Part shown: piece by piece, positions 5,401-44,454 of the stretch | Layout of the letters: each line of letters begins with the position of its first letter | How positions within the stretch are numbered: position 1 is the first letter of the stretch | Source of the DNA: Myxococcales bacterium | GTDB lineage: Bacteria > Myxococcota > UBA727 > JABDBI01 | NCBI GenBank assembly: GCA_023248595.1 | Contig: JAHFEG010000002.1 | Location: 51,825 to 115,824 of the forward strand | Direction: 5' to 3' | DNA length: 64,000 nucleotides | Translations under genes and position numbers: made by a program | Notes under the pieces: generated by a model | Databases searched by the model: none | Told to the model about the DNA's origin: nothing | Seen by the model: only the letters and a program-made list of their open reading frames with translations

Positions 5401-7428
5401 TTTCCTAGCTTTGTTTTTAATTTACGCCATCAGGCATATGCTTTTGCCTTTGATCTTCCATCTCACAATCATGCCATGCAACTCGTCAACCAACGCTTCT
5501 ATCGTGGTTTCATGGTTTATATTGCTGGTGAAAAGACCGTGCGTTTTCGTTTTAATCTGTCAACAACAATCAAAGAATTAAACGTCTTTTTTGAAAACCT
5601 AAGTCAAGCTTTGCATTTTTTAAGTGACCACCAAAATGAGACTGCTCCCAATTGGATAGTGCCTTCACCAAAGCCCCTAGTAAAAACATTTTCAATTGAA
5701 GAACAAACAAACGAAGACCTGTTTACGATTGAAGTTTTGACACAGGATTTATGGTCTTCCTACCAAGATCAAATCAAAAATTTAGAAGACGCGACTTATG
5801 AACTAAATCGTCGCGATTCAATGAATTTTTTACATGAATTTATTGCGCAAAAAGATGGGCTTGGTCTGATACTCACGCAACAATCCACAGAAGGTAATCG
5901 AATTTTAGGCTTTGCCATTGGCGGACCACTTGAACACAGCCAAATAGATGGGCCTTGGCAAGATAAAATGAGAGATCACTGTAATACTTTTTATTCTGCT
6001 AATATTGTCGTCAGTCAAGAATTGCGAAAGCAAGGTTTTGGATTCAAATTAAAATCTGCGCAAATTCACCACGTGCGATCCATGAAAAAACCAGATGGTG
6101 CTTATCGCTATGATTTTATGACAGGTCGCAATCGTGTCGGTTTCACACCGGAGATTAGCCGTATTAATCAATTTTTTGGTGCGCAGACTGTCGATATTTA
6201 CCATCGTCAGTATGGTGAGGCTAACGCTGAAGCGCTTTATTATCGAATCCCTTTAAGAAAGCCTCAGCTCGTCTGCATCAAAGGCACAGATTCAAGTTCT
6301 CCTCAAATCATCGATTGGTCTGCTTCTATTCAAGCACCCTTAGGGTCCTGTTCTCCAGAAATACTAAAAGAGATTATAAATGGCGCTTTTACCTCGGTAG
6401 TCGGCACCAAACTCACACTCTCCAATTGGGTTACACCTAGCATTGTTCGCTATACTGAGCTTCTAAGGCAGCTCGCGCCGAATTCTTGTCAACATGCCTA
6501 TTTTACATCTGGTCGAGACGAAGTTGTCGATAAAGGCCTTCGAGCATTAAGAGTCCACAGGCCTGCTGGCGATGTCGTGATTGGATTACAGCGCCAGTAT
6601 GTTGGACATACCACTGCTGCAGCGAGAAGTTTAAGTGATGAAAATAATTACCAAAGTCCTTTTGCCTGGTTTGATTGGCCAAAAGTTCAACATCCAGTTG
6701 AAACGAGCGACGAGACAAGCTTAGCAGAAATCAGAAGCCAAATCAGTCATTATTCCTCAGAACGGATCTTGGGAATCGCCGTTGAGCTCATTGGAGAAAA
6801 AAGTGGCTACGTTGTTTCAAATAATTTTTTAGATGGCTTAAATCAAATTCGGCAAGAAACGTCTATTCCATTGATTTTTGTTGAAACAGCCTCGGCCTTA
6901 GGTCGAAGCGGTAGCACAATTTTTAAAAGCGACAGCCTCATGGTTAAACCTAACATGGTTTGGTGGTATGCTGGTGCTCAACTGGGACATGTATTCGTCG
7001 ATCATGACTACTACGTATCCACACCGCTCACACTTATTTCTACCTGGGATGGTGATGAAATATCAATGAAGCGTACCTATCAACATTTGCGCGTTGCTCA
7101 TGAATGTCTCAAAACCAAACATGCTGCTTACTTCGAAAATCTACTTTCCCAAATGGATTGGTCTTGGCGACGACATGGCCAAGGACTATGGCATGTACTT
7201 ACCATGAAAAATCAAGAACAATGTCAAGAAGTCTTAAAAAAGGCCGCTGCTCTCGGTTTACAATTAGGCAAAAGCGGCAATCATCGTATTGTCATTAATC
7301 CTCCTATTAATGTATCTAAAGAAGAAATGCATCGTGGACTTGAGATTTTCAACCATGCAATATCCCAAACCTCCTATACTCGAACTAGACAGCACACACC
7401 CTCGCCTCTGTGGACAGATTCATGGTGA
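2476..7428 (+). CDS. 1650-aa multidomain enzyme: AstD-like aldehyde dehydrogenase, class-III PLP aminotransferase, GNAT N-acetyltransferase, and a second aminotransferase-like fold without the Schiff-base Lys
   Basis: Aldehyde dehydrogenase motifs: GPYNFPAHLVNAHVIPALITGNTVVVK, LEMGGKN and the catalytic Cys in GQRCTATSH. Aminotransferase 1: AGAEANEKAF, IIAFQGSFHGRTL, LIFDEVQTGFG and the Lys in TLAKKAQLG. GNAT motif A: ELRKQGFGFKL. Second aminotransferase-like fold: LIFVETASALGRSGS, with AGAQLG where the PLP-Lys is expected. Confidence 0.7.
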   Translation: MTIHLGKGNYINGQFINSGEKEIISINPASYFSPVFKSITSVAHVDTAVKSANLALRYWSSLDTNDRISFLMRLKEAFVKKEKQMAHAITSEMGKILSESLSEAKNLSARIELMANQGIKRVANEKPPGILGETRYHAQGVLSILGPYNFPAHLVNAHVIPALITGNTVVVKFSEICPWVGEIYAECIHEANFPAGVFNLVQGGADIGKALAKHPLIRGILFTGSYATGRSLAESVLDEPHKILALEMGGKNIAVVLKDADLYQALAEISQGAFLTTGQRCTATSHVLVDKTIASRFINSLVAITKSLKPGDPTHAKTIFGPLASQEARNRFSGLLKNATTSCEVLVKSQMFDGGAFVTPSLHLLNAKKAPGYLDTELFGPDVCIEIIDGIEEAIERTNQSAYGLSNAVFTAKKSAFEQYYQQTRSGVLNWNRSTNGAYGEQPFGGVGKSGNQRAAGIDAVRYTTFPVAVNYLEYGQTQLPFNMVTLLEKEKKNLDIPFSTLVTRHALEEMLENYQIPIEDVRGASILLPLHFIKKLSFQNKPIDEIHLIESLKPYVSLEEKNWIITLPEAEYLNIFLDIMDAFLKKLHNENFVHLIQPIASEIHIPTSEKLPRSAAMLRRLYRNDFLPKEKKNPVIDLRTSKGPYLASIDEDPLVIFDAASQIASLGLGFQADPYLKALTEDNLTACLLANQEDTPESKIWIEKYSQLLLQQTSPKMSHVNFTSAGAEANEKAFDLCRLNGPGGRRIIAFQGSFHGRTLMALQATYNPQKRAQFEFTGHQATFIPFPKRPNFEEDPEITDEWVACWSRAESPYVPPDDLLLRSEIQSLECLKSEIEKGNICAVIIEPMQCEGGDNYATARFFNGLRALTRALQVPLIFDEVQTGFGLLGPFYAHSAFKLRDAHGNLDGPDCITLAKKAQLGVCLSNWPDTRPATAHISQIMRGYLQAQAILDRKLFSPHLKTEIEKKIGILKQKFPSFVFNLRHQAYAFAFDLPSHNHAMQLVNQRFYRGFMVYIAGEKTVRFRFNLSTTIKELNVFFENLSQALHFLSDHQNETAPNWIVPSPKPLVKTFSIEEQTNEDLFTIEVLTQDLWSSYQDQIKNLEDATYELNRRDSMNFLHEFIAQKDGLGLILTQQSTEGNRILGFAIGGPLEHSQIDGPWQDKMRDHCNTFYSANIVVSQELRKQGFGFKLKSAQIHHVRSMKKPDGAYRYDFMTGRNRVGFTPEISRINQFFGAQTVDIYHRQYGEANAEALYYRIPLRKPQLVCIKGTDSSSPQIIDWSASIQAPLGSCSPEILKEIINGAFTSVVGTKLTLSNWVTPSIVRYTELLRQLAPNSCQHAYFTSGRDEVVDKGLRALRVHRPAGDVVIGLQRQYVGHTTAAARSLSDENNYQSPFAWFDWPKVQHPVETSDETSLAEIRSQISHYSSERILGIAVELIGEKSGYVVSNNFLDGLNQIRQETSIPLIFVETASALGRSGSTIFKSDSLMVKPNMVWWYAGAQLGHVFVDHDYYVSTPLTLISTWDGDEISMKRTYQHLRVAHECLKTKHAAYFENLLSQMDWSWRRHGQGLWHVLTMKNQEQCQEVLKKAAALGLQLGKSGNHRIVINPPINVSKEEMHRGLEIFNHAISQTSYTRTRQHTPSPLWTDSW

Positions 7429-8419
7429 ATCGCTACGCAATCAGGTACGAACCATGGCACAGATTCGCCTTGATCTCACGTGTCAAGAAACCGCCTTTTT
7501 TTCCAAAGAACAAGTTCTGAAAATTGCCAGGGCCCATCTGCCTATCTTAAAGAATTTTGATGAAGATCTTTATTTGGAATTGTTAGGTATTGCAGAAGGA
7601 AGTCGGCTTACTCCCGAAGAGATTGTGGTCCTTAATCACTACACAGACCTTCGCGATTTAAATCCAAGCAATAATCATCCCGATAGTGATGACACAAAAG
7701 GTTGTTCCGTTATTTATACCAAAGCACCAAGCGGTCCTTTGCTTGGACAAACTTGGGATATCGACAGCTCTGCAATCAATCATGTGGTGATTTTAAAAAT
7801 AAAAAATATTGAAAATAGCACATTGCTCTTCAGCTGCGCAGGCTGTCTGGGCATGACAGGGATGAATACAAATGCTGTAGGAATTTGTATCAACAATCTA
7901 AACAGCACCGATGCGCAAATTGGAATCCTCTGGCCTGCCCTTGTCCGAAAAGTCCTCAAACAATCAAGTGCTCAATTGGGACGCGATCTGATTTTAAGAG
8001 CCCCGCTTGGTTCTGGTCATCACTATTGCGTTGCAGATACAAAAGATTTTTTTGGTATTGAAACCAGCGGAACCAAAAAGAAAATAACCCAACAGGGAAG
8101 TCAAAAAACACATTTCCATACCAATCATTGTCTTGATGAAGAGATGAAATTAACCCACACCGTCAAATCCACCTCCACGACGTTTTCACGCTACCAAGAA
8201 CTGGAACACCGACTCCCTCATACAACTCTTTCTTCCGCGGAAGATATCTATGAACTCCTAGGCCATGTATCGATTGCTCCAAAACCAGAAACGACTGGCA
8301 CTGCAACCTGCGGCGCGCTCGTCATGGATTTAAAAGCACAAACAGCCCTGGCCTGCATGGGACCACCTTCTCAAAATATTTTTAATAATCTACCTCTGCA
8401 TTTGAGTTTAGCGAGATGA
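7355..8419 (+). CDS. Peptidase C45 / acyl-CoA:6-APA acyltransferase-like Ntn hydrolase
   Basis: N-terminal ...LELDSTHPRLCGQIHGESL... is followed by a Gly-Cys self-processing site (DTKGCSVIYTK) typical of C45 Ntn hydrolases. The start is uncertain: the ORF begins at 7289 in another frame and overlaps the upstream gene. 7355 is the first Met preceding the conserved region. Confidence 0.5.
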   Translation: MQYPKPPILELDSTHPRLCGQIHGESLRNQVRTMAQIRLDLTCQETAFFSKEQVLKIARAHLPILKNFDEDLYLELLGIAEGSRLTPEEIVVLNHYTDLRDLNPSNNHPDSDDTKGCSVIYTKAPSGPLLGQTWDIDSSAINHVVILKIKNIENSTLLFSCAGCLGMTGMNTNAVGICINNLNSTDAQIGILWPALVRKVLKQSSAQLGRDLILRAPLGSGHHYCVADTKDFFGIETSGTKKKITQQGSQKTHFHTNHCLDEEMKLTHTVKSTSTTFSRYQELEHRLPHTTLSSAEDIYELLGHVSIAPKPETTGTATCGALVMDLKAQTALACMGPPSQNIFNNLPLHLSLAR

Positions 8420-9753
8420 ATTTAAACAACCCTCCTGCCTTAGATTCACCGTTAGAAAGACAGCGAAAACATGTCTTTTTTCCGTGGTCAAAACAAAATT
8501 CGGCCAAGCCTTTTCATATTATCGAAGCGAAAGGTGTTCATCTTACTTTATTAGATGGTTCGCAAGTTTTAGATTTTAATAGTTCTGTCTTTAATGCCAA
8601 TTTGGGACATCAACATCCAGGCATGCAAACCGCCATGATAGAAGCTGCCAAACATGCTTGCGTCACCCACCCTGCCCTTATTCACGAAGAAAAAATCAAA
8701 CTAGGCGAAAATCTCGCACGTATTACTCCCGGTAAACCCTACGAAGGGCTCGTCAAAAGTTTTTTTTGCTTAGGCGGTGCTGAAGCCAATGAAAATGCCA
8801 TTAAAATGGCTCGACTCGTTACAGGTCGTCAGAAAATCGTCACACGATATCGCAGCTACCACGGTGCAACTTTAGCAATGATTGGTTACAGTGGCGATTA
8901 CAGACGCATTCCCTTCGATGGAACAGTTAACGGTGTCATTCGCATACCAGATCCTTATCCTCGTGGATCAGGACAAAGCATCGACACCATTCGTTTGCTC
9001 GAAGAGATTTTAGAAATTGAAGGCCCAGAGACTGTTGCCTGTATCCTTTTAGAAGGCGTCACTGGGGCCAATGGTGTCTTTATCCCTCCGCCAGATTACT
9101 GGACACGTATTCGACAAATTTGCGATAAATACGGAATTATTCTCATTGCCGATGAAGTTATGTCTGGATTTGGTCGAACTGGAAAATGGTTTGGCATTGA
9201 TCACTTTGGAGTCGAACCAGATATCATGACCATGGCCAAAGGTCTCACGGCAGGCTATGCACCATTGGGCGCCGTCATCGTCACAGACAAAATTGCGCAG
9301 CATTTCGAAAATGAAACATTGTGGTGCGGCCTAACCAATTATGGCCATCCCTTTTCATGTGCCATCGCTAACGCCGCTATTTCAATATATGAACAAGAAA
9401 ATTGGATCGACAATGCCGCCAAACGGGGCGACGAGCTAGCGCAATTATTGCAAGCACTCAAAAATAATAATGCCTACGTCGCCGAAGTTCGTTCTATTGG
9501 CCTTTTGGCCGCTATCGATTTGCGTAAAGGTCCTCATGATGAAAGACCTTATGTATCTTATCGAGCCCAAGGTGAAGAAGCTGAAAAAGCGCAAGCACTA
9601 CAAAGTGCTTTGCTGAGCGCCGGTGTCTATTGCACTGTTCGTTTTGGAACATTGATTCTTGCTCCACCTCTTTGCGTCACGGCTGAAGAATTAAAGCAGG
9701 GAATAGATATCATTTCTTCTGTTCTTGGTAAAATCCTATCCTCTAACGCTTAA
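8416..9753 (+). CDS. Class-III PLP-dependent aminotransferase
   Basis: Motifs LGGAEANENAIKMAR, YRSYHGATLA, LIADEVMSGFGRTGKWFG and TMAKGLTAGY (the Schiff-base Lys). An ATGA overlap couples it to the upstream gene. Confidence 0.8.
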   Translation: MNLNNPPALDSPLERQRKHVFFPWSKQNSAKPFHIIEAKGVHLTLLDGSQVLDFNSSVFNANLGHQHPGMQTAMIEAAKHACVTHPALIHEEKIKLGENLARITPGKPYEGLVKSFFCLGGAEANENAIKMARLVTGRQKIVTRYRSYHGATLAMIGYSGDYRRIPFDGTVNGVIRIPDPYPRGSGQSIDTIRLLEEILEIEGPETVACILLEGVTGANGVFIPPPDYWTRIRQICDKYGIILIADEVMSGFGRTGKWFGIDHFGVEPDIMTMAKGLTAGYAPLGAVIVTDKIAQHFENETLWCGLTNYGHPFSCAIANAAISIYEQENWIDNAAKRGDELAQLLQALKNNNAYVAEVRSIGLLAAIDLRKGPHDERPYVSYRAQGEEAEKAQALQSALLSAGVYCTVRFGTLILAPPLCVTAEELKQGIDIISSVLGKILSSNA

Positions 9754-18579: not shown

Positions 18580-19635
18580 TTATGATTTTTTATTTTTAAG
18601 TTCATAGACAAAATTCAAAACCTCAGCGACCGCTTCGTAAAGTTCTTCAGGAATTTCCTCTTCCAAATCTAGCTTATTTAATGCTTGCGCCAAGGGCACA
18701 TTTCTTAAAATTGGAATATCGTTTTTTCTCGCAATCTCTCTGATTTTTTCCGCATTTTTGCGCAGCCCCTTCGCGATAACCATGGGAGCAGTTTTCTTTT
18801 TTTTATCATACTGAATAGCAACAGCGATATGCGCAGGATTCGTCACCACCGCATCCGCATTTTTGACACGTTGTTGGCTACCATGCATCACCAGCTCTTG
18901 CGCAAGTCTTTTGCGCTCACCTTTTAACTCAGGGTCGCCTTCTGATTGCTTGTACTCTTGCTTAATTTCTTGTTTTGTCATCATCATGCTTTTTTTAAAA
19001 ACATGCTTTTGCCAAAAATAATCGGCACCAGCCACAACTAAAAATAAAGCGGTCACGCGAACACAAATATCCTTGATGATGACTCCAATAATTCCAAGCG
19101 ACGAGAATAAATCGAGCCGCTGCATCAAAATAATATTGGGCAAAGCATTCTTAAGCGCATAATAAACAACCATTGAAACCATGGAAAATTTCACGATTTG
19201 TTTTAAGACTTCTACCAACCGTTTTACACTAAATAGTTGCTTTAAACCTTGAATCGGATTTAACTTGTCCAATTTGGGTTTTAAGGGCTCGGTCGTCAAT
19301 AAAAAACCAACTTGCATATAATTGCCAGCAAGAGCTAGAACAAAAGCTGTCACTAAAACCGGCAAAGAAACTAAAACCCAGGTTTTCAACCCTTGGTTTA
19401 AAATTTCTGCAGCAGCCAAATCTAAATCCTGACGAGAAATTGCTTTCATGCTGGCAATAATAAAATCGCTCATCTCTTTGGCAACGATTGCTAAACTACC
19501 GGCTAATGCCGCAAAAGCGCCAGCAAAAACGATTGCAGAAACAAAATCCTGACTCTTAGAGACTTGCCCCTTCTCTTTTGCTTCACGAAGTTTCTGAGGA
19601 GTAGGTTCTTCGGTTTTTTCTCCGCTTTCTGCCAC
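18580..19635 (-). CDS. sctU: Type III secretion export-apparatus switch protein SctU (YscU/FlhB family)
   Basis: The N-terminus MAESGEKTEEPTPQKLREAKEKGQVSKSQDF is canonical for YscU/FlhB. Four TM helices follow, then a C-terminal autocleavage-region motif VVTNPAHIAVAI (NPTH-type). Confidence 0.85.
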   Translation of the reverse strand: MAESGEKTEEPTPQKLREAKEKGQVSKSQDFVSAIVFAGAFAALAGSLAIVAKEMSDFIIASMKAISRQDLDLAAAEILNQGLKTWVLVSLPVLVTAFVLALAGNYMQVGFLLTTEPLKPKLDKLNPIQGLKQLFSVKRLVEVLKQIVKFSMVSMVVYYALKNALPNIILMQRLDLFSSLGIIGVIIKDICVRVTALFLVVAGADYFWQKHVFKKSMMMTKQEIKQEYKQSEGDPELKGERKRLAQELVMHGSQQRVKNADAVVTNPAHIAVAIQYDKKKKTAPMVIAKGLRKNAEKIREIARKNDIPILRNVPLAQALNKLDLEEEIPEELYEAVAEVLNFVYELKNKKS

Positions 19636-20859: not shown

Positions 20860-21192
20860 GTGTTTTTAAATAAAAGCGCTAAAGGCACCTTTACTCTCGT
20901 GCTTGCCGATAGGATAATTGGACCTAAGAGAGTGGGAAAGGTATGCTTATTCTCTGGAGTAACTATGTGGGCATTATTTGAGCAGTTTCGATTCAATACA
21001 GTGCTTCCTGATATCTGGATCATTGAAGAACAGCTTCGCCAAGAACGAGAGAGGGAACGCTACCGAAGAGAATCAATTCCTCTTGAACTCCCAATCAGCC
21101 TTCCTGAACGGGAAGAGTATCCTAATCATAGTCACAAAAAAAATGAGGTTAAAGAAGAACGTGTAATTATTATTGACCTATCCTCCCTATAA
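20860..21192 (+). CDS. Questionable small charged protein
   Basis: This is the only ORF in a 370-bp gap. It is highly charged (RQERERERYRRE) and has no clear RBS. It may be non-coding. Confidence 0.2.
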   Translation: MFLNKSAKGTFTLVLADRIIGPKRVGKVCLFSGVTMWALFEQFRFNTVLPDIWIIEEQLRQERERERYRRESIPLELPISLPEREEYPNHSHKKNEVKEERVIIIDLSSL

Positions 21193-21207: not shown

Positions 21208-21777
21208 TTAAGCACGTTCAACATATTGCCCAGTGCGGGTATCAATCTTTACTTTATCGCCTTCATTTACAAACAATGGCACCTGCACCGTATAACCTGT
21301 TTGCATTTTTGCTGGCTTGGTCGCGCCACTCACAGTGTCCCCTCTAACGGCGGGAGCACATTCAGCGATTTGTAGAACAACATGGTTAGGAATTTCAATA
21401 TTCACGGCCTTGCCCTTATAAAACAAAAGCGACACCGGCATGCTTTCTACTAAAAAGTGGGCTGCGTCACCCAGCACTTTAACCGGCACTTCAAACTGAT
21501 CATACGATACTGGATCCATAAAATGAAAGATACCATCAACCATGTAAAGAAATTGAACTTCGCGTTCATTTAGATCGGGGCGTTCAACTTTGTCGCCGGA
21601 ACGAAATGTCGGGTCTGTCGTCATGCCTGTAATTAGATTCTTAAGCCGGGTGCGCACAATCGCAGCACCTTTCCCAGGCTTATGATGTTCAAACTCCACA
21701 ATCTCGTAAGGCTCATTTTGAAACATGATACGAAGCCCCCGACGAAAATCTGAAGTGGAAAACATGAAAACTCCCAA
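21208..21777 (-). CDS. efp: Elongation factor P
   Basis: The KPGKG loop (...EHHKPGKGAAIVRTRLKNLITG...) carries the modified Lys. The three-domain length is ~185 aa. The true start may be the second Met, at 21765. Confidence 0.85.
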   Translation of the reverse strand: MGVFMFSTSDFRRGLRIMFQNEPYEIVEFEHHKPGKGAAIVRTRLKNLITGMTTDPTFRSGDKVERPDLNEREVQFLYMVDGIFHFMDPVSYDQFEVPVKVLGDAAHFLVESMPVSLLFYKGKAVNIEIPNHVVLQIAECAPAVRGDTVSGATKPAKMQTGYTVQVPLFVNEGDKVKIDTRTGQYVERA

Positions 21778-21802
21778 ACAAATAGCAAATTGAAAGAAAG
21801 AA

Positions 21803-21832
21803 AAGACCTCTTGGGCTTTACACCAAGGTCTT
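21803..21832 (-). terminator. Possible terminator or attenuator hairpin between the pil cluster and efp
   Basis: An imperfect hairpin (AAGACC-tc-TTGG ...loop... CCAAGGTCTT) is followed on the minus strand by a U-rich tract (complement of GAAAGAAAGAAAAG). It has a bulge, and efp starts only ~25 nt downstream. Confidence 0.3.
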
Positions 21833-21867
21833 CAAATTGGCTATCCTTGTTTTTGTTTGGCTTCTGG

Positions 21868-22824
21868 TCAGTCTTGATCACAGACAACTTGGCATTTAAA
21901 ACCACGTTCTTTATCTAGAGCACCCGCAGTAAATACACGGATAATTTTGCCTGTCTGACTGTAATTGAGACCTGTAACCTGTAAAACAGCATGAAATGCA
22001 TCTTGCCAAGGAACTTTGTTCAATTGGATGCTCACTCGACCAACAATATTATTGCCAAAAACAATATTGCTTCCACTCGCTTTTGCCATAAAACGTAAAA
22101 CATTACGAAGCTCTGCATCACGAAAATCAATAGAGATTAATTTCTGGCTAAGCGGCGATGATGATTTTAAAATTTGCTTTTTCTTCACCACTTCTGGCAG
22201 TTGGCTAATCGGTGCACTATTTTGGGAAACAGGAGCAACCAAAATTGTATCAGATCTCAAAGAAGATGCAGTGAAAACAATTTGAAGTCCCAAATTGTTT
22301 TGCACAACCTGATAATTGGGAAGTGCCTGACTAAAGAAATCGATGACGACACGTGTTTTTTCTGCATGTGTCCCTATGCGAATATTTCCAAACTTGAAAC
22401 GTTGTAGCTTTTTGAGCCTCTTAGTTGAAGATACATCTAACAAATCAACAACTAAGCGCACAGGATTTTCTAAATTTTGTGTTTCAAAACGCAGGGCAGA
22501 GTTTTTCACAATTAAATTTAAAGTTACCCCAGTCTTTGTTTCGCTAGACTGAATTGCTATCAACAAATTTTTGGCTGATGAATTTCGCGAAGTAATCGGC
22601 ACCATCAAAGGCGGAGAAGGAACGGTTACCATAGGCGCAGGGGCAAGATTAGTCTGCGTATCTGGCTCTGGAGAATTGACAGGTTCATTGATTGCAAAAT
22701 TAATCGGCATAATTGGGGCTTGTTCATCAGACTGCAACAAGATCGAGCGCTGCCCAAAAGTCGAGATTGGTAGGAAAACTACAAAAGCGATTACCCAGAT
22801 ATTCACTCGCTTAATTCGATTCAC
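21868..22824 (-). CDS. PilQ N-terminal-like protein (AMIN-like + secretin-N domains) lacking the secretin beta-barrel
   Basis: It has a signal peptide and an AMIN-like segment (NPVRLVVDLLDVSS...RIGTHAEKTRVVIDF). A Secretin_N-type segment follows (ISIDFRDAELRNVLRFMAKASGSNIVFGNNIVGRVSIQLNKVPWQDAFHAVLQVTGLNYSQTGKIIRV). The ORF ends ~20 aa later, and there is no room for a secretin domain before efp. Confidence 0.55.
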   Translation of the reverse strand: MNRIKRVNIWVIAFVVFLPISTFGQRSILLQSDEQAPIMPINFAINEPVNSPEPDTQTNLAPAPMVTVPSPPLMVPITSRNSSAKNLLIAIQSSETKTGVTLNLIVKNSALRFETQNLENPVRLVVDLLDVSSTKRLKKLQRFKFGNIRIGTHAEKTRVVIDFFSQALPNYQVVQNNLGLQIVFTASSLRSDTILVAPVSQNSAPISQLPEVVKKKQILKSSSPLSQKLISIDFRDAELRNVLRFMAKASGSNIVFGNNIVGRVSIQLNKVPWQDAFHAVLQVTGLNYSQTGKIIRVFTAGALDKERGFKCQVVCDQD

Positions 22825-22835
22825 TTTAATCCCCC

Positions 22836-23441
22836 TTAGTGCACGAGCTTTAATGTGATGTAAGTGCTCTGCCCTTCTTTGATCACGATCTGATTGGACT
22901 GAACAGATTCGACACGCCCAGAATTTTTGCCAATTTGGCTTCCCACTTTTAGCGTATAGCCAACACCTGACGGATCCTCAATCAATGCTAACGCAATGCC
23001 ACCTTGCATCAGAAATCCAACATATTTGTAAGTCTCCGCATCAAAATCAAGCAAAGCCGATTCTCTTTCTTGGTGCATCTCTTCTTCGCTGGCAGAAGCT
23101 AAATAACTTGAAAATGGATCGCGAAACAGTGGTTTTTGTTCAACAGGGAGGTTTTTTTTAGAAAGATCCAAACTCGTTACCTGCTCTTTGGCAAGAACTT
23201 TAGGAGTCAATGTAACGAGCGGCAAAAACACGCTATTATTCACAATAGGTATCCGCAAAGCCGATGATTCTACAGATTGAGAAGTCAGCTTGTCTCTAAC
23301 GAGTGTTTTGCCAGAAGGAGAAAACTCTATTTTTTCGGGTAAATCAACAGTCACCACGTTTTCAACGTCAGATGCACCTTCTTTTGTACAAGACATTCCT
23401 GCTAATAATACCAAGATACCAAATGCCCTAAATAAAATCAC
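22836..23441 (-). CDS. pilP: PilP-like lipoprotein
   Basis: It has a lipobox (LLAGMSC). The C-terminal domain ...RDPFSSYL...YKYVGFLMQGGIALALIEDPSGVGYTLKVGSQIGKNSGRVESVQSNQIVIK... matches the PilP beta-domain pattern. Confidence 0.5.
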   Translation of the reverse strand: MILFRAFGILVLLAGMSCTKEGASDVENVVTVDLPEKIEFSPSGKTLVRDKLTSQSVESSALRIPIVNNSVFLPLVTLTPKVLAKEQVTSLDLSKKNLPVEQKPLFRDPFSSYLASASEEEMHQERESALLDFDAETYKYVGFLMQGGIALALIEDPSGVGYTLKVGSQIGKNSGRVESVQSNQIVIKEGQSTYITLKLVH

Positions 23442-24028
23442 GACATCTGCCCCCGATAAGCCGCTAACGTTAAAGTAATAGTAAGCATCGTATGATCTTC
23501 TGCAGAGGAGAAAACAGTTAGATGCATATTTTTGACAGTTGTCAGGCGAGACAAACCAATCAGTCCTTCCAAAAATTGCACTAAATTTTCATACTTCCCA
23601 GTTAAGGTCATCATGATGGGAATCTCAACCACTAAACCTAAAGATTGCTCTTGCTTCTCTTCAAAATTCAGAAGAACCATGTTCGCTAAATTGGCTTCGG
23701 TTGCAACTGCCTCTAAAAGATCAGAAATATCAGCGGTATTTGGAATTGCCTGCTCTGGATTTAAATTCGCCATATGAATGAGCAATTGATTCTTCAATGC
23801 ACCATATTTTTCTGGATGACTTAAATGCGCCAATAATTTTTCGCGTTTCACTAATTGAGTTAAAATTCTTTGCTTCATTTTCCATTTTTCACGCAAAAAA
23901 CCAAAATAAAAGCCCCCCCAAACAGCAGTGGTCAAAAACACTGAAACAAGAGCGATGACTACAACAGAAATGTGGGAAGAGCGCACCGATGCAACTAATG
24001 TTTTAGGCAAAACTGGTTTAGTCATCAC
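23438..24028 (-). CDS. pilO: PilO-like inner-membrane protein
   Basis: It has an N-terminal TM and a coiled coil. The sequence ...IPNTADISDLLEAVATEANLANMVLLNFE...TGKYENLVQFLEGLIGLSRLTTVKNMHL... fits PilO/GspM-type topology and motifs. Its start and stop overlap both neighbours. Confidence 0.55.
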   Translation of the reverse strand: MMTKPVLPKTLVASVRSSHISVVVIALVSVFLTTAVWGGFYFGFLREKWKMKQRILTQLVKREKLLAHLSHPEKYGALKNQLLIHMANLNPEQAIPNTADISDLLEAVATEANLANMVLLNFEEKQEQSLGLVVEIPIMMTLTGKYENLVQFLEGLIGLSRLTTVKNMHLTVFSSAEDHTMLTITLTLAAYRGQMS

Positions 24029-24515
24029 GCCCTCCTTTCAATGCGCATACCAATTTAAATTGATACACATTGCTATTTTTTATTTTTTTAGACTGCGTTG
24101 AAGTCAGACTAACAGTCGAAAACACAGGATTTTTAGACAACATACTGATAAAATCAGCTAGAATATCATTCGACACTGCATAACCATTAAGCACAACATT
24201 TTTTTCTGTCTGCAACCATTCTGTTAACCAGACTTTTTTTGGAATCGCCAAAGATACAGCAGAAAGCAATTGCTTCTCAATGCCCCTTTCTTTTTCAAGT
24301 TGCTCTATCAATTGTTCTTTTGCTTGAAGCATATCGTGACTGGAAACAGTCGAATTCATTTGCTGGCCCAGATGACTAAATTGATTAATTTCTTGCTGCG
24401 CCTGCAATACTTGGCGATTCTTATTGTCAATTTGGTGGGAAATATAAAAATAGACAGTTGTCATCGCAACAGCATTCACAATTAAGACAATTATTATAAT
24501 CAAAAAATAGCGCAC
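24018..24515 (-). CDS. pilN: PilN-like inner-membrane protein
   Basis: It has an N-terminal TM and a coiled coil. The segments ...KKVWLTEW...VLNGYAVSNDILADFISML...YQFKLVCAL fit the PilN pattern. Confidence 0.55.
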   Translation of the reverse strand: MRYFLIIIIVLIVNAVAMTTVYFYISHQIDNKNRQVLQAQQEINQFSHLGQQMNSTVSSHDMLQAKEQLIEQLEKERGIEKQLLSAVSLAIPKKVWLTEWLQTEKNVVLNGYAVSNDILADFISMLSKNPVFSTVSLTSTQSKKIKNSNVYQFKLVCALKGGRDD

Positions 24516-24575
24516 AGGGATATTCTCATTATGTTTATAAATTAAGCCTAATAATTTGCTTACATTACAACCATT

Positions 24576-25445
24576 CTACCAGTTTCCTAAAAAGATGGCT
24601 AATTCTTGGCTCATCTTAGAAATTTGGTGTCCCCATAATGCCACTTCTAGGCCTGCTAAAGCAAGAAACGGTCCAAAAAAAATAGCTTGCGCTGGTGGCT
24701 GCCAACCATCTTTTGTAGGCGTTATCTGCGGCTTAATAATTAAAAAAGCAATAATCCCCTGAATACATGCCAATAAAATAACATACGGCAATCCCAAGAT
24801 ACCCACGTAGGCGCCTATCCCTGCCAAAAGCCAAGGGTCACCCCATCCCATCGCAAATTCATCTGACTTTAACCGACCGAGGCGTCTTAAAACCCATGTA
24901 GAAGCGATTAAAAATGCAGCAAAGAATGAGAAACCAAAGACGCTTCCTAAAACGCGTGCTCCAAACTGTACAGATTGATAAGAAGAATCGTTTTGCCAGC
25001 TACTTATTCCACCAAAAACAAGGCCCGTCACAATTAAAAATACAGGTAACGATAAAGGAATTAACCAGGTATCTATGTCAATGAAAGCAATCGCTATTAA
25101 GATAGCAATGAAAATAAATAATTCTAAAGTCACCCACTGGAAACCGAATTGAAGCCACAATGCTAAAGCAAAACCGCCCATTACCAATTCAATAAAAGGA
25201 AGGCGTCCAGATATAGATGTTTTACAGTAACGACATCGACCCCCCAAAACAAACCAGGAAACGATGGGAATTAAATCGTAATAAGCGATAGAGCATTTGC
25301 AACTCATACAATGTGATCGCGGCCATAAAATTGACATCCCTACGAGCGGAAAACGCAAAATAACCACGCCTAAGAAACTTCCAACAATTGTACCAATGAT
25401 AAAGAAAAGGAAGACAAGCCCAATTTCAAAAAACGAAAAAACCAT
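24576..25445 (-). CDS. pilD: Prepilin peptidase (A24 family)
   Basis: It has the N-terminal Zn tetracysteine motif (CMSCKCSIAYYDLIPIVSWFVLGGRCRYCK), and the polytopic A24 peptidase body with conserved Asp-containing loops. Confidence 0.8.
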   Translation of the reverse strand: MVFSFFEIGLVFLFFIIGTIVGSFLGVVILRFPLVGMSILWPRSHCMSCKCSIAYYDLIPIVSWFVLGGRCRYCKTSISGRLPFIELVMGGFALALWLQFGFQWVTLELFIFIAILIAIAFIDIDTWLIPLSLPVFLIVTGLVFGGISSWQNDSSYQSVQFGARVLGSVFGFSFFAAFLIASTWVLRRLGRLKSDEFAMGWGDPWLLAGIGAYVGILGLPYVILLACIQGIIAFLIIKPQITPTKDGWQPPAQAIFFGPFLALAGLEVALWGHQISKMSQELAIFLGNW

Positions 25446-25447
25446 AT

Positions 25448-26248
25448 TTAATTAGCCTCGTCCGTTTTTGTACCATGCTTTTCCAAATGATGATTCAATT
25501 GGTAAAGTGAAATCGCTGCACACATTCTCACTTTTCGCGAACCGTCTTGTAAAAGTGAGCGCAGAGCCATAACCACGGTTTCATTTTGACCAGGATGACG
25601 TTGAAATTTAAGCAAGCTTAAAGCCCGAGCAGCATAAGCACGAACATCTTCATCTTGAAACGTCACTGCATCCAAAAGAATATCCAGCGCGCGCTCATCG
25701 CCGATTTTCCCCAAAGCCTCACAAGCATTCGCGGGCACAAAATGATGCTTGATTGCTGAAATAAGAAATGGCAAAGCTAAAACATTTTTGCACTGCCCAA
25801 GCGCCCAGGCCACTGCAGCTCCCACTTCCGGATCATCTGTTACAAATGCTTTGACAAGTTCGATGCTTGCTCTGCCATCTTCCAAACGCCCTAAAGTCAG
25901 AGCAGCGCCAATGACCACTTGGCGATCTGGATGATGCAAACTAGCCATTAAATCCTGTAACATATCTCCTTCACCCATGCGAATAAGCGCAATGGCAACC
26001 TGAATGCGAACTTGCCTTTCAGGATCTTTTAGCAAGGGATACATTAAAGCAATTGCTTTTGATTCTCTTTGACAACCTAAAATTTCAACAGCATCAGAAC
26101 GCATACTCGCATCAGGATGTTTTAAATAAAACATTAACTGCTCACATGTTAGTTCACGACGTTCAATACGACTAACCAATTTATTTTGCAAAGAAATATT
26201 TAATGAAAAAGTTGCCATGTCATATCCAGAGACTGCCTTTTTATCCAA
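25448..26248 (-). CDS. HEAT-repeat (PBS-lyase-like) protein
   Basis: About 30-aa repeat units of the form ...VR..A..ALG.. recur (ASMRSDAVEILG, ERQVRIQVAIALIRMG, DRQVVIGAALTLGRL, EDVRAYAARALSLL, SRKVRMCAAISL). It abuts pilD. Confidence 0.55.
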   Translation of the reverse strand: MDKKAVSGYDMATFSLNISLQNKLVSRIERRELTCEQLMFYLKHPDASMRSDAVEILGCQRESKAIALMYPLLKDPERQVRIQVAIALIRMGEGDMLQDLMASLHHPDRQVVIGAALTLGRLEDGRASIELVKAFVTDDPEVGAAVAWALGQCKNVLALPFLISAIKHHFVPANACEALGKIGDERALDILLDAVTFQDEDVRAYAARALSLLKFQRHPGQNETVVMALRSLLQDGSRKVRMCAAISLYQLNHHLEKHGTKTDEAN

Positions 26249-26339: not shown

Positions 26340-26948
26340 TTAAGCAGCTTTGCGTTTTGCTTTTTTACGTGCTGCCGGCTTTTTGGCAGGTGCTTTCGCC
26401 TTGGCTTTCTTTTTGGCAGGCGCTTTATGCTTTTTGGCAGGCGCTTTTGCTTTAGCCTTAGCTTTCACTTTGCCGCCTTTTTTCTTGACGACTTTCTTTT
26501 TACCTTTTGCTTTTTTCTTGACTGCAGCTGCTTTTTTCTTGACTGCAGCTGTTTTTTTCTTGACTGCAGCTGCTTTTTTCTTAGCCGCTGCTGCTTTTTT
26601 CTTAGCCGCTGCCTTTAGTTTTGCTGCTGCTTTTTTCTTTTTAGCAACTAATTTCTTTTTCAATAAAATTGCACGCTGAGCTGCTGTTTTACGTCGGCGC
26701 TTGCCCTTTCTTGCAGTACCGCCACGGCTAGCTTTTACACGTGAAATGTCGCCTTGTTTATCTACATAATAAAGATAATTTTCATCACGTTTCAGGTCAG
26801 TTTTTTGAACAACTTCAGGATTTTCACCTTTCTTTTTCTTTTCTCCGCCCCGAACCATCTTTGCTCGATAAATATTCAAATTTTTATCAAGATAATATAA
26901 CCAACCTTTTTTACGTTCCACGCCTGTGCGTAATACTTTTTCAGCCAT
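26340..26948 (-). CDS. Histone H1-like Lys/Ala-rich nucleoid-associated protein with two N-terminal WLYY/YLYY repeats
   Basis: The C-terminal ~110 aa are AKKK/AAAKKK repeats (compare Hc1/Hc2, AlgP and BpH1 tails). The N-terminus has two ~35-aa repeats (KKGWLYYLDKNLNIYRAKMVRGG and ENYLYYVDKQGDISRVKASRGG). The start is set at the ATG, 26948, which is 9 nt after AAGGAG. The ORF track begins 9 nt further upstream, at 26957. Confidence 0.6.
   Translation of the reverse strand: MAEKVLRTGVERKKGWLYYLDKNLNIYRAKMVRGGEKKKKGENPEVVQKTDLKRDENYLYYVDKQGDISRVKASRGGTARKGKRRRKTAAQRAILLKKKLVAKKKKAAAKLKAAAKKKAAAAKKKAAAVKKKTAAVKKKAAAVKKKAKGKKKVVKKKGGKVKAKAKAKAPAKKHKAPAKKKAKAKAPAKKPAARKKAKRKAA
26511..26613. repeat. 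Intragenic tandem repeat (three 21-nt units, then two variant ~20-nt units) encoding the KKAAAVKKK-type tail
   Basis: TTTTTTCTTGACTGCAGCTGC occurs three times. Two copies of TTTTTTCTTAGCCGCTGC(TGC) follow directly. Confidence 0.8.
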
Positions 26949-27253
26949 TGTATCCATCTCCTTAAATCCGGATGAAGCTCCGGCGAGCTCGTTGCAAAAG
27001 TAGCTAAAGCCACCCCGCTTTCAATCTCTATCCTCTCGCAACAGCACACCTCTGGTCGATTCATGTCTTGTTTTTCTTTTTAGAGTAAAGCTTTCGCTTT
27101 TATCGACATCCGTATTCTTAACTTCTTTATAATTTTAACGATAAATAAAAATGCAAATTTGCAAATAAATATAACTAGTTATGCTTAAATTTTAATTAAA
27201 TTAAATCCTTTTTACCTCCTCTTTTTTTTTGATTTCTATCGAACAACACACCA

Positions 27254-42010: not shown

Positions 42011-42254
42011 AACCTGCAGAACCTATTAACCCCTGGCGACCTACGCTGGGCATTTGCTCGTCTGCTCGAAGACTTAAGTCTAACGGGACTGCATGTGTCA
42101 TAGGCTCTACACCTTCAATATCTACTTTTTGTAGACTATCCACATATTTAGTTATCTCACCTAAATGATGCTGCATGTGTTTTACTTCTTCATCGTTCAG
42201 AGATAATCTTGCCAATCGCGCCAATTTTCGAACTTCTGCTATTTCAAAAACCAT
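41970..42254 (-). CDS. gatC: Glu-tRNA(Gln) amidotransferase subunit C
   Basis: 94 aa; MVFEIAEVRKLARLARLSLNDEEV... is a typical GatC opening. It lies directly 5' of gatA. Confidence 0.7.
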   Translation of the reverse strand: MVFEIAEVRKLARLARLSLNDEEVKHMQHHLGEITKYVDSLQKVDIEGVEPMTHAVPLDLSLRADEQMPSVGRQGLIGSAGYEDGLIKVPKIIE

Positions 42255-42318
42255 TATTTTTCCTATAAGATGCGGTATCCTGTACGATGAAAATCACCAT
42301 GAAAAGGGGGTTGCCTTA

Positions 42319-42837
42319 ATGAACTTAAACCTTTTGTTATATCTTTTCGCCACATTGACGTTGAGTGGCGCGGTCGGTGTCGTATTTTTTCGTCACTTTT
42401 TATATGGCATTTTATCTTTACTGCTAACTCTGCTTAGTTTATGCGGGCTTCTATACATGATAGGAGCAGAAATTCTAAGCGCCATGTTATTTTGGCATCT
42501 AGGGATAACGAGTATATTAGTTCTTTTGCACACCTTTTTTCTGATTGGTCCACAAAATAGCCATAAATCTCCCAGACGTCTCGTCCCCGGCAAATTCTTT
42601 TTTGTAGTTGCAGTGCTTTACACAGCCACCTTTCTTATCGGCATCCCTTCTTTTCATGTTTTTAAAATTAATCCCGCACCTATTGATATCAAGGTTCTTT
42701 ATCATCTTTTCCAAACAGAACATGCTTTTGCCATTTTCTTGCTTCTTTCCCTAACCCCATTTATTCTCATCAGTAGCCTATTGCTCATCAGACAAGATAA
42801 AAACAGAAACAAAGAAATAAACAGCGTTGGACACTAG
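42319..42837 (+). CDS. NuoJ/ND6-like small polytopic membrane protein
   Basis: AAGGGGG lies 8 nt before the ATG. The pattern MNLNLLLYLFATLTLSGAVGVVFF...GAEILSAMLFW resembles NuoJ (ND6) helices 1-3. It sits immediately upstream of the NuoK-like gene. Confidence 0.45.
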   Translation: MNLNLLLYLFATLTLSGAVGVVFFRHFLYGILSLLLTLLSLCGLLYMIGAEILSAMLFWHLGITSILVLLHTFFLIGPQNSHKSPRRLVPGKFFFVVAVLYTATFLIGIPSFHVFKINPAPIDIKVLYHLFQTEHAFAIFLLLSLTPFILISSLLLIRQDKNRNKEINSVGH

Positions 42838-42886
42838 CACTTCTTTTTGGTTAAAACTAAAATGAAACTTAAAGCAGGGCTTTAAA

Positions 42887-43186: not shown

Positions 43187-43192
43187 ACGCTT

Positions 43193-44452: not shown

Positions 44453-44454
44453 GT

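What the first reader, a model, noticed from the sequence alone, without database searches (positions are those of the whole stretch)
21868..25445. Pil N/O/P cluster with a secretin-less PilQ-N-domain protein and prepilin peptidase, but no pilM or secretin barrel
Four consecutive genes encode PilN-, PilO- and PilP-like proteins, then a protein with AMIN-like and secretin-N domains that stops before any secretin beta-barrel. Only 90 bp separate it from efp, so no barrel gene follows. A prepilin peptidase gene lies immediately upstream, and no PilM-like actin-fold gene is present. This may be a pared-down type II secretion / type IV pilus alignment complex that uses a secretin encoded elsewhere, or a novel periplasmic scaffold. 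T4P-like alignment proteins are unexpected if the organism is chlamydia-like.
Basis: partly seen in the sequence, partly recalled or inferred. Interest (0 to 1): 0.5.

Follow-up and report, generated by a model that had tools for sequence, protein, structure and literature searches.

The report
Pilus scaffold genes without a pore
A low-GC relative of the myxobacteria keeps and conserves the periplasmic scaffold genes of its type IV pilus machine, although the outer-membrane pore and the cytoplasmic adaptor PilM have been lost, which suggests the scaffold has a use of its own.

Summary
On the minus strand lie a HEAT-repeat gene, a PilD-type prepilin peptidase, PilN, PilO, PilP, and a 318-aa protein with a signal peptide, one AMIN domain and a secretin N0 domain. 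It stops 90 bp before efp. The 64-kb window holds no PilM, secretin domain or pilin.

It is not a frameshift. Orthologues of 315-318 aa at about 60% identity share the synteny and an invariant C-terminal tail. dN/dS for the four pil genes is about 0.14-0.27.

The nearest outgroups (L005, L006) carry a full-length 619-623-aa PilQ at the same position before efp. More distant relatives (L021, L023) are again truncated just after N0, with unrelated tails. The secretin half was therefore lost at least twice. One lineage retains only PilD, a mini-PilP and AMIN-N0.

The organism looks Myxococcota-affiliated, not chlamydia-like. The cluster is a reduced pilMNOPQ cluster of the kind seen in Myxococcota contigs.

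The most likely function is inferred: an inner-membrane PilN/O/P complex tethered to peptidoglycan through AMIN-N0, acting without a pore. Whether another secretin, pilins or ATPases exist elsewhere in the genome could not be tested.

This is a new variant of a known kind, of moderate interest.

The parts
25448..26248 (-). HEAT-repeat protein (266 aa), the first gene of the likely operon. Its end lies 2 nt from the peptidase start.
   Evidence: Pfam HEAT_2 4.6e-37. A HEAT gene sits in the same position directly before the A24 peptidase in L002, L021 and L006. A terminator-like hairpin at 26312-26284 lies upstream of it (suggestive only).
24576..25445 (-). PilD/GspO-type prepilin peptidase (289 aa).
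   Evidence: Pfam A24_N_bact 1.6e-28 and Peptidase_A24 3.5e-12. The sequence shows CxxC...CxxC and a GWGD motif. Identity to orthologues is 78% and dN/dS is 0.08-0.12.
24018..24515 (-). PilN-like bitopic protein (165 aa) with no cytoplasmic PilM-binding tail.
   Evidence: Pfam PilN 1.7e-15. It begins MRY followed directly by the transmembrane helix in all four lineages compared. A classical PilN from a contig with a full pilMNOPQ cluster (L025) begins MLRINLLPAKASKK.... dN/dS is 0.18-0.22.
23438..24028 (-). PilO-like bitopic protein (196 aa). It overlaps the end of pilN by 11 nt.
   Evidence: Pfam PilO 1e-14 and T2SSM_b 1.4e-7. dN/dS is 0.14-0.23.
22836..23441 (-). PilP-like probable lipoprotein (201 aa). 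It has a long linker and a C-terminal HR beta-domain (about residues 126-200).
   Evidence: Pfam PilP 2.1e-10. PDB sequence matches to PilP 2ivw, 4av2_M and 3jc8_Pa. A Cys follows the signal-peptide hydrophobic stretch in all five orthologues, and likewise in the L021 mini-PilP. dN/dS is 0.18-0.26.
21868..22824 (-). Truncated PilQ (318 aa): signal peptide, disordered Pro-rich N-terminus, AMIN, linker, N0, then a 19-residue tail. It has no N1 and no secretin domain.
   Evidence: Pfam and NCBIfam results. AF2 model with pLDDT 76. Foldseek matches to PilQ, the AmiC AMIN domain and GspD N0. Orthologues of 315-318 aa. Full-length 619-623-aa relatives sit in the same synteny.
22270..22569 (-). AMIN domain (residues 86-185); predicted to bind peptidoglycan.
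   Evidence: Pfam AMIN 4.8e-7. AF2 pLDDT 92-97 over most of this segment, falling near its C-terminal end. Foldseek match to E. coli AmiC 4bin and to PilQ 3jc8. It aligns to M. xanthus PilQ residues 214-304.
21928..22140 (-). Secretin N0 / STN domain (residues 229-299); predicted docking site for the PilP HR domain.
   Evidence: Pfam STN 9.7e-11 and GspD N0 4e-7. AF2 pLDDT 93-97. Foldseek matches 4ar0, 4jtm and 7pmp. This is the most conserved part of the protein.
21871..21927 (-). Lineage-specific C-terminal tail (residues 300-318). KERGFKCQVVC is invariant in the three close orthologues.
   Evidence: Alignment A1. AF2 predicts a helix at 300-310 and a disordered end. The tails of the independently truncated P0008 and P0066 are unrelated.
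21778..21867 (.). 90-bp spacer between the truncated pilQ and efp, too short to hold a secretin remnant. It contains a weak terminator-like hairpin at 21827-21810.

Best explanation
Identity (shown). This is a reduced descendant of the pilMNOPQ cluster seen in Myxococcota contigs, in a low-GC, Myxococcota-affiliated lineage. First pilM and the PilM-binding N-terminus of PilN were lost. Later the N1 and secretin half of pilQ was deleted. What remains is a conserved operon: HEAT-pilD-pilN-pilO-pilP-pilQ(AMIN-N0).

Mechanism (inferred from the retained domains and from published work on the homologous parts):
- PilN and PilO sit in the inner membrane as a heterodimer.
- The lipoprotein PilP holds them through its long linker.
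- PilP's HR domain docks on the N0 domain of the truncated PilQ.
- The AMIN domain of the truncated PilQ binds peptidoglycan, probably septal or polar peptidoglycan.

The result would be an inner-membrane-anchored, wall-tethered periplasmic scaffold or landmark. It no longer forms an outer-membrane pore and is no longer coupled to a cytoplasmic PilM/ATPase motor. What it positions or stabilises is unknown. The tightly linked, strongly conserved PilD suggests prepilin-type substrates still exist in the cell.
For: Domain content and structure:
- Domain assignments.
- Confident AF2 AMIN and N0 domains, with matches to PilQ, AmiC and GspD N0.
- The best PDB sequence match is M. xanthus PilQ; the PilP HR domain matches solved PilP structures.

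Evolutionary origin:
- Full-length PilQ of 619-623 aa sits at the same position between pilP and efp in the nearest outgroups.
- Classical pilMNOPQ...efp synteny occurs in high-GC contigs that carry a full pilMNOPQ cluster.

Retention under selection:
- dN/dS is 0.14-0.27 for all four genes.
- Overlapping or abutting reading frames suggest co-translation.
- The EF-P and PilQ-N trees place full-length L005 with the window clade (482 and 484 of 500 bootstraps). Truncated L021 and L023 fall outside. This gives at least two independent truncations at the N0/N1 boundary, with unrelated tails.
- L021 keeps only PilD, a PilP HR-domain lipoprotein and AMIN-N0.

Loss of the PilM link:
- PilN lacks the INLLP tail.

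Published experiments on the homologous parts:
- In P. aeruginosa, recruitment of PilO to division sites needs the PilQ AMIN domains and PilP. It does not need PilM and it precedes secretin oligomerisation. AMIN fragments bind peptidoglycan (PMC5285504).
Against: - No function was observed directly; the mechanism is transferred from homologues.
- The rest of the genome could not be searched. A partner secretin, pilins, PilB/PilC/PilT or an unlinked PilM may exist.
- Without a secretin domain the N0 domain may not form a ring, so the stoichiometry is unknown.
- dS is about 1-1.7, close to saturation, so the dN/dS values are approximate.
- The trees are neighbour-joining on short alignments, and deep branching (L006, L021, L023) is unresolved.
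- The invariant CxxxC tail and the conserved mature N-terminus (QQSILLxPDEQxPxMP) are unexplained by this model.
Confidence: 0.5

Rival explanations
1. Split or trans-secretin machine. The complex still serves a working type IV filament system (T4aP or T2SS). The outer-membrane channel would come from a secretin encoded elsewhere: a separate N1+secretin gene, GspD, or another PilQ paralogue. The AMIN-N0 protein would supply only the wall anchor and the PilP docking site.
For: - PilD is retained next to the cluster in every lineage and is strongly constrained (dN/dS about 0.1), which implies prepilin substrates exist.
- PilO also matches T2SS-M models weakly.
- Only about 74 kb of this genome could be inspected.
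Against: - No secretin, pilin, ATPase or platform gene occurs in the window, in the 10 kb upstream of it, or in the flanks of four related loci.
- A search with the secretin half returned only relatives from other organisms. Those checked were high-GC loci with a full pilMNOPQ cluster, genes cut by a contig end, or frameshifted assemblies.
- PilM and its docking peptide on PilN are gone, so coupling to an extension motor would need a new route.
- Known secretins carry their own N0 domain, so a free N0 is not obviously needed.
- L021 has also lost PilN and PilO.
Confidence: 0.22
2. Co-opted accessory of another envelope machine, for example the type III secretion system whose genes lie about 2 kb downstream. 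The T4P-derived parts would act as a periplasmic cage or wall anchor, as in the Campylobacterota flagellar motor.
For: - sctU, a T3SS-type TPR chaperone and further TPR genes follow efp and Rsm22 in the window and in all relatives with long enough contigs.
- Precedent: the flagellar cage proteins FcpMNO, PflD (PilQ-N1 plus PilP loop) and PflA (AMIN-like) derive from T4P parts (PMC11870540; PMC10823254).
Against: - The pil-efp-Rsm22-sctU adjacency also exists in L020, which still has a secretin-bearing PilQ. It therefore predates the truncation.
- efp and Rsm22 separate the two gene sets.
- There is no co-variation or interaction evidence.
Confidence: 0.1
3. Decaying remnant. The genes are leftovers of a pilus machine being lost during genome reduction and have no present function.
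For: - Stepwise loss is evident: pilM, then the secretin half, then pilN/pilO in L021. GC falls from about 70-75% to 38-44% across the clade, as in reductive evolution.
- These genes evolve faster than neighbouring housekeeping genes.
Against: - Reading frames are intact in every lineage and assembly examined.
- dN/dS is about 0.2 at dS of 1 or more.
- The tail is invariant and N0 is highly conserved.
- Truncation occurred independently at the same domain boundary rather than at random positions.
- The gene spacing is compact and overlapping.
Confidence: 0.06
4. Assembly or sequencing artefact, or frameshift, that falsely truncates a normal pilQ.
For: The sequence is from a metagenome-assembled genome. 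Some related loci from noisy long-read assemblies do show artificially split pil genes.
Against: - There is no room for a secretin domain (90 bp to efp) and no remnant by tblastn.
- The same architecture appears in NCBI, ENA, JGI and Logan assemblies of several species.
- The C-terminus is conserved.
Confidence: 0.02

Closest known systems
Type IVa pilus machine of Myxococcus xanthus / Pseudomonas aeruginosa (PilD; PilMNOP alignment subcomplex; PilQ secretin)
   Same: - Gene order pilN-pilO-pilP-pilQ followed downstream by efp matches contigs that carry a full pilMNOPQ cluster.
- Pfam families PilN, PilO and PilP are shared.
- AMIN and N0 are most similar to M. xanthus PilQ.
- PilP has a lipoprotein-like signal sequence with a conserved Cys, plus the HR domain.
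- The retained parts are those shown to mediate AMIN- and PilP-dependent, PilM-independent recruitment to septal peptidoglycan (PMC5285504).
   Different: - No PilM, and PilN has no PilM-binding N-terminus.
- PilQ has one AMIN domain, not the two or three of the model species, and lacks N1 and the secretin domain. No outer-membrane pore can form.
- No pilA, pilB, pilC or pilT nearby.
- A HEAT-repeat gene precedes pilD.
Campylobacterota flagellar motor cage and scaffold (FcpMNO, PflD, PflA)
   Same: T4P alignment-complex parts (PilM/N/O homologues, a PilP-like loop, a PilQ periplasmic N-domain, an AMIN-like domain) are used as a periplasmic scaffold without any secretin pore (PMC11870540, PMC10823254).
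   Different: - It belongs to a flagellum and retains a PilM homologue.
- It uses N1 rather than N0.
- It is in a different phylum.
- Here no partner machine has been identified.
T2SS assembly platform GspC/GspL/GspM with GspD N0
   Same: The GspC HR domain binds GspD N0, as PilP HR binds PilQ N0. PilO here weakly matches T2SS-M models.
   Different: - No GspL-type cytoplasmic domain and no GspC PDZ or coiled-coil.
- All four proteins score better with the Pil models.
- The NCBIfam GspM and GspD hits are far below their cut-offs.
AMIN-domain periplasmic targeting modules (e.g. the AmiC N-terminal domain)
   Same: A stand-alone AMIN fold predicted to target septal peptidoglycan (Foldseek hit 4bin; PMC2572700).
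   Different: Here AMIN is fused to a secretin N0 domain and encoded with PilNOP, not with an amidase.

Membership tests
Secretin (PilQ/GspD/SctC; Pfam PF00263) | C-terminal secretin domain forming the outer-membrane beta-barrel | tested here: not met
   No Secretin hit in the 318-aa protein. Only positions 2-80 of the 428-position TIGR02515 model are matched. tblastn with secretin halves of relatives finds nothing in the window.
Secretin (PilQ/GspD/SctC; Pfam PF00263) | N1 (Secretin_N, PF03958) ring-building domain after N0 | tested here: not met
   No PF03958 hit. Only 19 residues follow N0. The full-length relative P0005 has Secretin_N 1.8e-12 and Secretin 2.6e-44.
Secretin (PilQ/GspD/SctC; Pfam PF00263) | N0/STN domain, and for T4aP secretins an AMIN domain | tested here: met
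   STN 9.7e-11, N0 4e-7, AMIN 4.8e-7. The AF2 and Foldseek results agree.
T4aP alignment subcomplex PilMNOP | PilM, an actin-like cytoplasmic protein, encoded with pilN | tested here: not met
   No PilM_2 or FtsA-like hit in the scanned window ORFs of 120 aa or more, which are nearly all of them. The A24 peptidase gene abuts pilN in the window, L001, L002, L006 and L023. The rest of the genome was not searched.
T4aP alignment subcomplex PilMNOP | PilN cytoplasmic N-terminal peptide (INLLP motif) that binds PilM | tested here: not met
   PilN starts MRY followed directly by the transmembrane helix in four lineages. A classical PilN (L025) starts MLRINLLP.
T4aP alignment subcomplex PilMNOP | PilN and PilO bitopic proteins with the characteristic periplasmic domains | tested here: met
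   PF05137 1.7e-15 and PF04350 1e-14, both above gathering score. An N-terminal hydrophobic helix is visible in both sequences.
T4aP alignment subcomplex PilMNOP | PilP lipoprotein with a C-terminal HR domain that binds PilQ N0 | tested here: inconclusive
   The domain is present (PF04351 2.1e-10; PDB PilP matches). A conserved Cys follows the signal sequence. Binding to N0 was not tested.
Complete type IVa pilus system | Major pilin, PilB/PilT ATPases and the PilC platform present in the genome | not testable with these tools
   None found in the 64-kb window, in 10 kb upstream, or in the flanks of relatives. The remainder of the genome could not be queried.
Complete type IVa pilus system | PilD prepilin peptidase | tested here: met
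   A24_N_bact 1.6e-28 and Peptidase_A24 3.5e-12.
T2SS platform (GspC/L/M) | Proteins reach the curated GspM/GspL/GspC model cut-offs | tested here: not met
   NCBIfam GspM scores 18.8 bits against a cut-off of 60. Pfam T2SSC scores 14.8 against 27. No GspL hit.

The most novel reading that the evidence does not exclude
The PilP-HR / PilQ AMIN-N0 pair, with or without PilN/O, may be an autonomous, secretin-independent periplasmic device. It could be an inner-membrane-to-peptidoglycan tether, or a polar/septal landmark that positions another envelope machine. It would have been freed from the pilus secretin convergently in at least two lineages of a genome-reducing Myxococcota-related clade. That would be a natural dissection showing that the T4P alignment complex has a second function, independent of the pilus.
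Probability: 0.3. Interest if true: 0.7.

Novelty: new variant of a known kind. Interest (0 to 1): 0.45.

Why it matters
Type IV pilus research treats PilMNOP-PilQ as a single trans-envelope machine whose purpose is to extrude a fibre.

Here evolution has removed the pore and the cytoplasmic adaptor but kept the periplasmic parts under selection. It has done so more than once. In one lineage only PilD, the PilP HR domain and AMIN-N0 remain.

These retained parts are the ones that experiments in P. aeruginosa and M. xanthus tie to peptidoglycan-dependent polar or septal targeting. The locus therefore offers a natural minimal system for two questions: what the alignment complex does apart from pilus assembly, and how pieces of molecular machines become available for co-option.

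It also corrects the taxonomic reading of the window. The organism is a low-GC, T3SS-bearing relative of the myxobacteria, not a chlamydia-like organism.

Tried and rejected
1. Frameshift or readthrough. Rejected: only 90 bp separate the stop from efp, there is no secretin remnant by tblastn, and length and tail are conserved.

2. Chlamydia-like origin. Rejected on the genome label, the organism labels of GatA relatives, the PDB best hit and the synteny. A literature search for PilNOP in Chlamydiae gave nothing relevant. Denise et al. note only that the chlamydial T2SS lacks GspL/M.

3. T2SS GspC/L/M identity. Rejected: the hits are sub-threshold.

4. Search for a detached N1+secretin gene. 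A profile of the secretin halves (A3) returned short Secretin_N+Secretin proteins on long contigs (P0273, P0199), and P0231 was also checked. The look-ups showed other, high-GC loci with a full pilMNOPQ cluster. Their genes were cut by a contig end or by frameshifts in noisy assemblies. None came from this clade.

5. Pilin search. A regex for the class III signal-peptide motif across six frames gave no hits.

6. Extending beyond the window. Ten kb upstream holds guaA, dabAB, sulP, folD and gcvT. The downstream look-up failed because the guessed protein is not on record.

7. First AF2 run with a 3-sequence alignment was too poor to use (pLDDT 46.7). It was repeated with 65 sequences.

8. Genome- and metagenome-contig scans with the N-terminal profile added only one clade member each. 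The family is rare in those collections.

9. The first bootstrap attempt was invalid because the replicate trees were not rooted consistently. It was redone on bipartitions.

10. P0055, another short AMIN-N0 protein, sits on a 1.3-kb contig with no context. This was inconclusive.

11. Promoter and terminator scans did not exceed shuffle expectation.

Full report
**What is there**

Between 26248 and 21868, all on the minus strand, lie six tightly packed genes. Pfam assigns them as follows:

| Coordinates | Product | Pfam evidence |
|---|---|---|
| 26248-25448 | HEAT-repeat protein | HEAT_2 4.6e-37 |
| 25445-24576 | PilD/GspO-type prepilin peptidase | A24_N_bact 1.6e-28; Peptidase_A24 3.5e-12 |
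| 24515-24018 | PilN | 1.7e-15 |
| 24028-23438 | PilO | 1e-14 |
| 23441-22836 | PilP | 2.1e-10 |
| 22824-21868 | 318-aa AMIN + N0 protein | AMIN 4.8e-7; STN 9.7e-11; GspD-like N0 4e-7 |

The 318-aa protein matches the NCBIfam PilQ model only over positions 2-80 of 428. Its stop codon is 90 bp from the start of efp.

An AlphaFold2 model built on a 65-sequence alignment has a mean pLDDT of 76. It shows:
- a disordered, Pro-rich N-terminal region after the signal peptide;
- a confident AMIN beta-sandwich at residues 86-185;
- a disordered linker;
- a confident N0 domain at residues 229-299;
- a short helix and a floppy tail.

Foldseek matches the model to Neisseria and Myxococcus PilQ, to the AmiC AMIN domain and to GspD N0 domains.

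**Absences**

Pfam scans of nearly all ORFs of 120 aa or more in the 64-kb window found no PilM, no secretin, and no pilus ATPase or platform family. A six-frame search for the prepilin cleavage motif found nothing. tblastn with the secretin halves of the nearest full-length relatives found no remnant in the window or in orthologous loci. Ten kb beyond the window start carries only metabolic genes.

**Not a frameshift**

The big-database search returned only three proteins: the query itself and two orthologues at 59-60% identity. All are 315-318 aa.
- Both orthologues sit in the same A24-PilN-PilO-PilP-AMIN/N0-efp-Rsm22-SctU synteny. They come from independent NCBI, ENA and Logan assemblies.
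- The last residues, KERGFKCQVVC, are invariant.
- Pairwise dN/dS is well below 1 at dS of about 1-1.7, which is near saturation:

| Gene | dN/dS |
|---|---|
| PilN | 0.18-0.22 |
| PilO | 0.14-0.23 |
| PilP | 0.18-0.26 |
| Truncated PilQ | 0.19-0.27 |
| Peptidase | about 0.1 |
| efp | 0.02-0.03 |

These are maintained genes.

**Where it came from**

A profile search of 1.84 billion representatives found two full-length secretins as the best non-self hits: P0005 (619 aa, E 2e-72) and P0009 (623 aa).
- Both have AMIN, N0, Secretin_N and Secretin domains.
- Both sit in the same place: PilP-PilQ-efp in L005, and HEAT-A24-PilN-PilO-PilP-PilQ-efp in L006.
- The short proteins align with them up to the end of N0 and then stop.

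More distant members of the same syntenic clade are again short:
- L023/L024 carry A24-PilN-PilO-PilP-AMIN/N0 (290 aa)-efp.
- L021/L022 carry HEAT-A24, a 123-aa gene, AMIN/N0 (299 aa), then an inverted efp. The 123-aa product has a signal sequence followed by a Cys. It consists of little more than the PilP HR domain. PilN and PilO are gone.

Neighbour-joining trees with 500 bootstraps place full-length L005 with the window clade. Support is 482/500 for EF-P and 484/500 for the PilQ N-region rooted with five other PilQ sequences from the secretin-half search. L021 and L023 lie outside that clade. The three short forms also end in unrelated tails. The most parsimonious reading is at least two independent deletions at the same N0/N1 domain boundary.

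**Loss of PilM**

The loss of PilM is older than the truncation. L006 keeps a full PilQ but already has the peptidase abutting pilN. In all four lineages compared, PilN starts MRY followed directly by the transmembrane helix. A classical PilN from a contig with a full pilMNOPQ cluster starts MLRINLLPAK..., which carries the PilM-binding peptide.

**Whose genome**

The evidence points to a Myxococcota-affiliated organism:
- The only genome-collection record for a close relative is titled 'Myxococcales bacterium'.
- Every named relative of the window's GatA that carries an informative organism label, at about 60-65% identity, is from Myxococcales, Myxococcaceae or Deltaproteobacteria MAGs.
- The best solved-structure match of the AMIN-N0 protein is M. 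xanthus PilQ (3jc8, E 9e-31).
- The secretin halves of the full-length relatives are closest to Myxococcota PilQ.
- High-GC contigs with classical PilM-N-O-P-Q followed by aro genes and efp share the downstream synteny (L019, L020, L025). In L020 this includes Rsm22 and SctU.

GC content falls across this series from 69-75% (L019, L020) to 50% (L021) and then 38-44% (L005, L006, L023, window). This pattern is suggestive of reductive evolution. The 'chlamydia-like' premise is therefore not supported. For this lineage, pil genes are expected. [quoted passage not shown] The unusual feature here is their reduced state.

**How it most likely works (inferred)**

The retained domains form a chain:
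- PilN and PilO in the inner membrane;
- PilP, whose linker holds PilN/O and whose HR domain binds PilQ N0 (interaction described in PMC5285504);
- the AMIN domain of the truncated PilQ, which binds peptidoglycan.

In P. aeruginosa, recruitment of PilO to future division sites requires the PilQ AMIN domains and PilP. It does not require PilM, and it precedes secretin oligomerisation. AMIN-containing fragments pull down with peptidoglycan. [quoted passage not shown]

The natural minimal set here is exactly that PilM-independent, pore-independent sub-function. I therefore propose an inner-membrane-anchored, wall-tethered periplasmic scaffold or landmark. What it organises is unknown. The tightly linked, strongly constrained PilD implies that prepilin-like substrates persist somewhere in the genome.

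Campylobacterota provide precedent for T4P parts used as pore-less periplasmic scaffolds. Examples are FcpMNO, PflD with a PilQ-N1 domain and PilP loop, and PflA with an AMIN-like domain (PMC11870540).

**Rivals**

- A secretin supplied in trans cannot be excluded, because the rest of the genome was out of reach. My search for a detached N1+secretin gene found only other organisms.
- Co-option by the nearby T3SS is possible. However, the adjacency predates the truncation (L020).
- Simple decay is disfavoured by selection and by the convergent, domain-precise truncations.
- An assembly artefact is excluded.

**Unexplained**

- The invariant CxxxC tail.
- The conserved mature N-terminus QQSILLxPDEQxPxMP, shared by short and full-length forms.
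- The role of the conserved HEAT-repeat gene.

**Verdict**

This is a new, reduced variant of the T4aP alignment complex, with a naturally truncated PilQ. It is of moderate interest, mainly as a natural dissection of a well-studied machine.

Noticed in passing
window 26340-26957 (-): A 205-aa protein with a small N-terminal domain and a long Lys/Ala-rich (AAKKK-repeat) histone-H1-like tail. It has no Pfam hit. A gene of similar size (185-209 aa) with no Pfam hit sits at the same position in L001, L002 and L021. It may have prompted the 'chlamydia-like' reading.
   Followed up: partly
window 13679-19635 (-/+), and L001/L002/L020/L021/L023: A type III secretion fragment: SctU/FlhB-family gene (18580-19635, PF01312 2.9e-114), a 157-aa ORF, and two class-II-chaperone-like TPR proteins (17563-18102, 14853-15479). 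It is conserved downstream of efp and Rsm22 across the clade.
   Followed up: partly
window 13679-14761 (-) with efp at 21208-21777 (-): A radical-SAM / lysine-2,3-aminomutase-like gene (EpmB/YjeK type) lies about 6.5 kb from efp. It is conserved in the relatives' loci and may be the EF-P modification enzyme.
   Followed up: no
window about 20968-21192 (+), between efp and Rsm22: A small ORF of about 72-76 aa on the strand opposite efp is called at this position in every related locus (L001, L002, L005, L006, L020, L021, L023). Its function is unknown.
   Followed up: no
window 2476-9753 (+): A 1650-aa fusion of aldehyde dehydrogenase and class-III aminotransferase domains. It is followed by an AAT (acyl-CoA:6-APA acyltransferase-like) protein and a second aminotransferase. 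This may be a small amine or amino-acid modification cluster.
   Followed up: no
L019, L020, L021, L006, L023, L005, window: GC content falls from 75% and 69% in contigs with classical or secretin-bearing pil clusters to 50% and then 38-44% in this clade. In parallel, pilM, the aro genes between pilQ and efp, the secretin half, and (in L021) pilN/pilO are lost. This looks like genome reduction in a Myxococcota-related lineage.
   Followed up: partly
L021 8897-9454 (-): In this lineage efp is inverted and abuts the 3' end of the truncated pilQ. This suggests the truncation there came from an inversion with a breakpoint just after N0.
   Followed up: no
window 22824-22650 (-), residues about 25-42 of the AMIN-N0 protein: The mature N-terminus motif QQSILLxPDEQxPxMP is conserved in truncated and full-length relatives (P0002, P0003, P0005; partly in P0008 and P0009). 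It is predicted to be disordered and no function is known.
   Followed up: no
window 1361-2404 (+): A GluR0-like ligand-gated potassium channel: a solute-binding domain split by an ion-channel pore (SBP_bac_3, Lig_chan, Ion_trans_2).
   Followed up: no
window 42000-48000: A strong negative AT skew (about -0.2) coincides with a run of membrane-protein genes (NuoJ-like, Proton_antipo_M) and two large ORFs with no Pfam hit (43193-44452, 44314-45840).
   Followed up: no
JGI 3300075153, 1.3-kb contig (P0055): Another complete-looking 323-aa AMIN+N0 protein ends right after N0, in an apparently different lineage. There is no genomic context, so it is unknown whether stand-alone AMIN-N0 proteins occur outside this clade.
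   Followed up: partly
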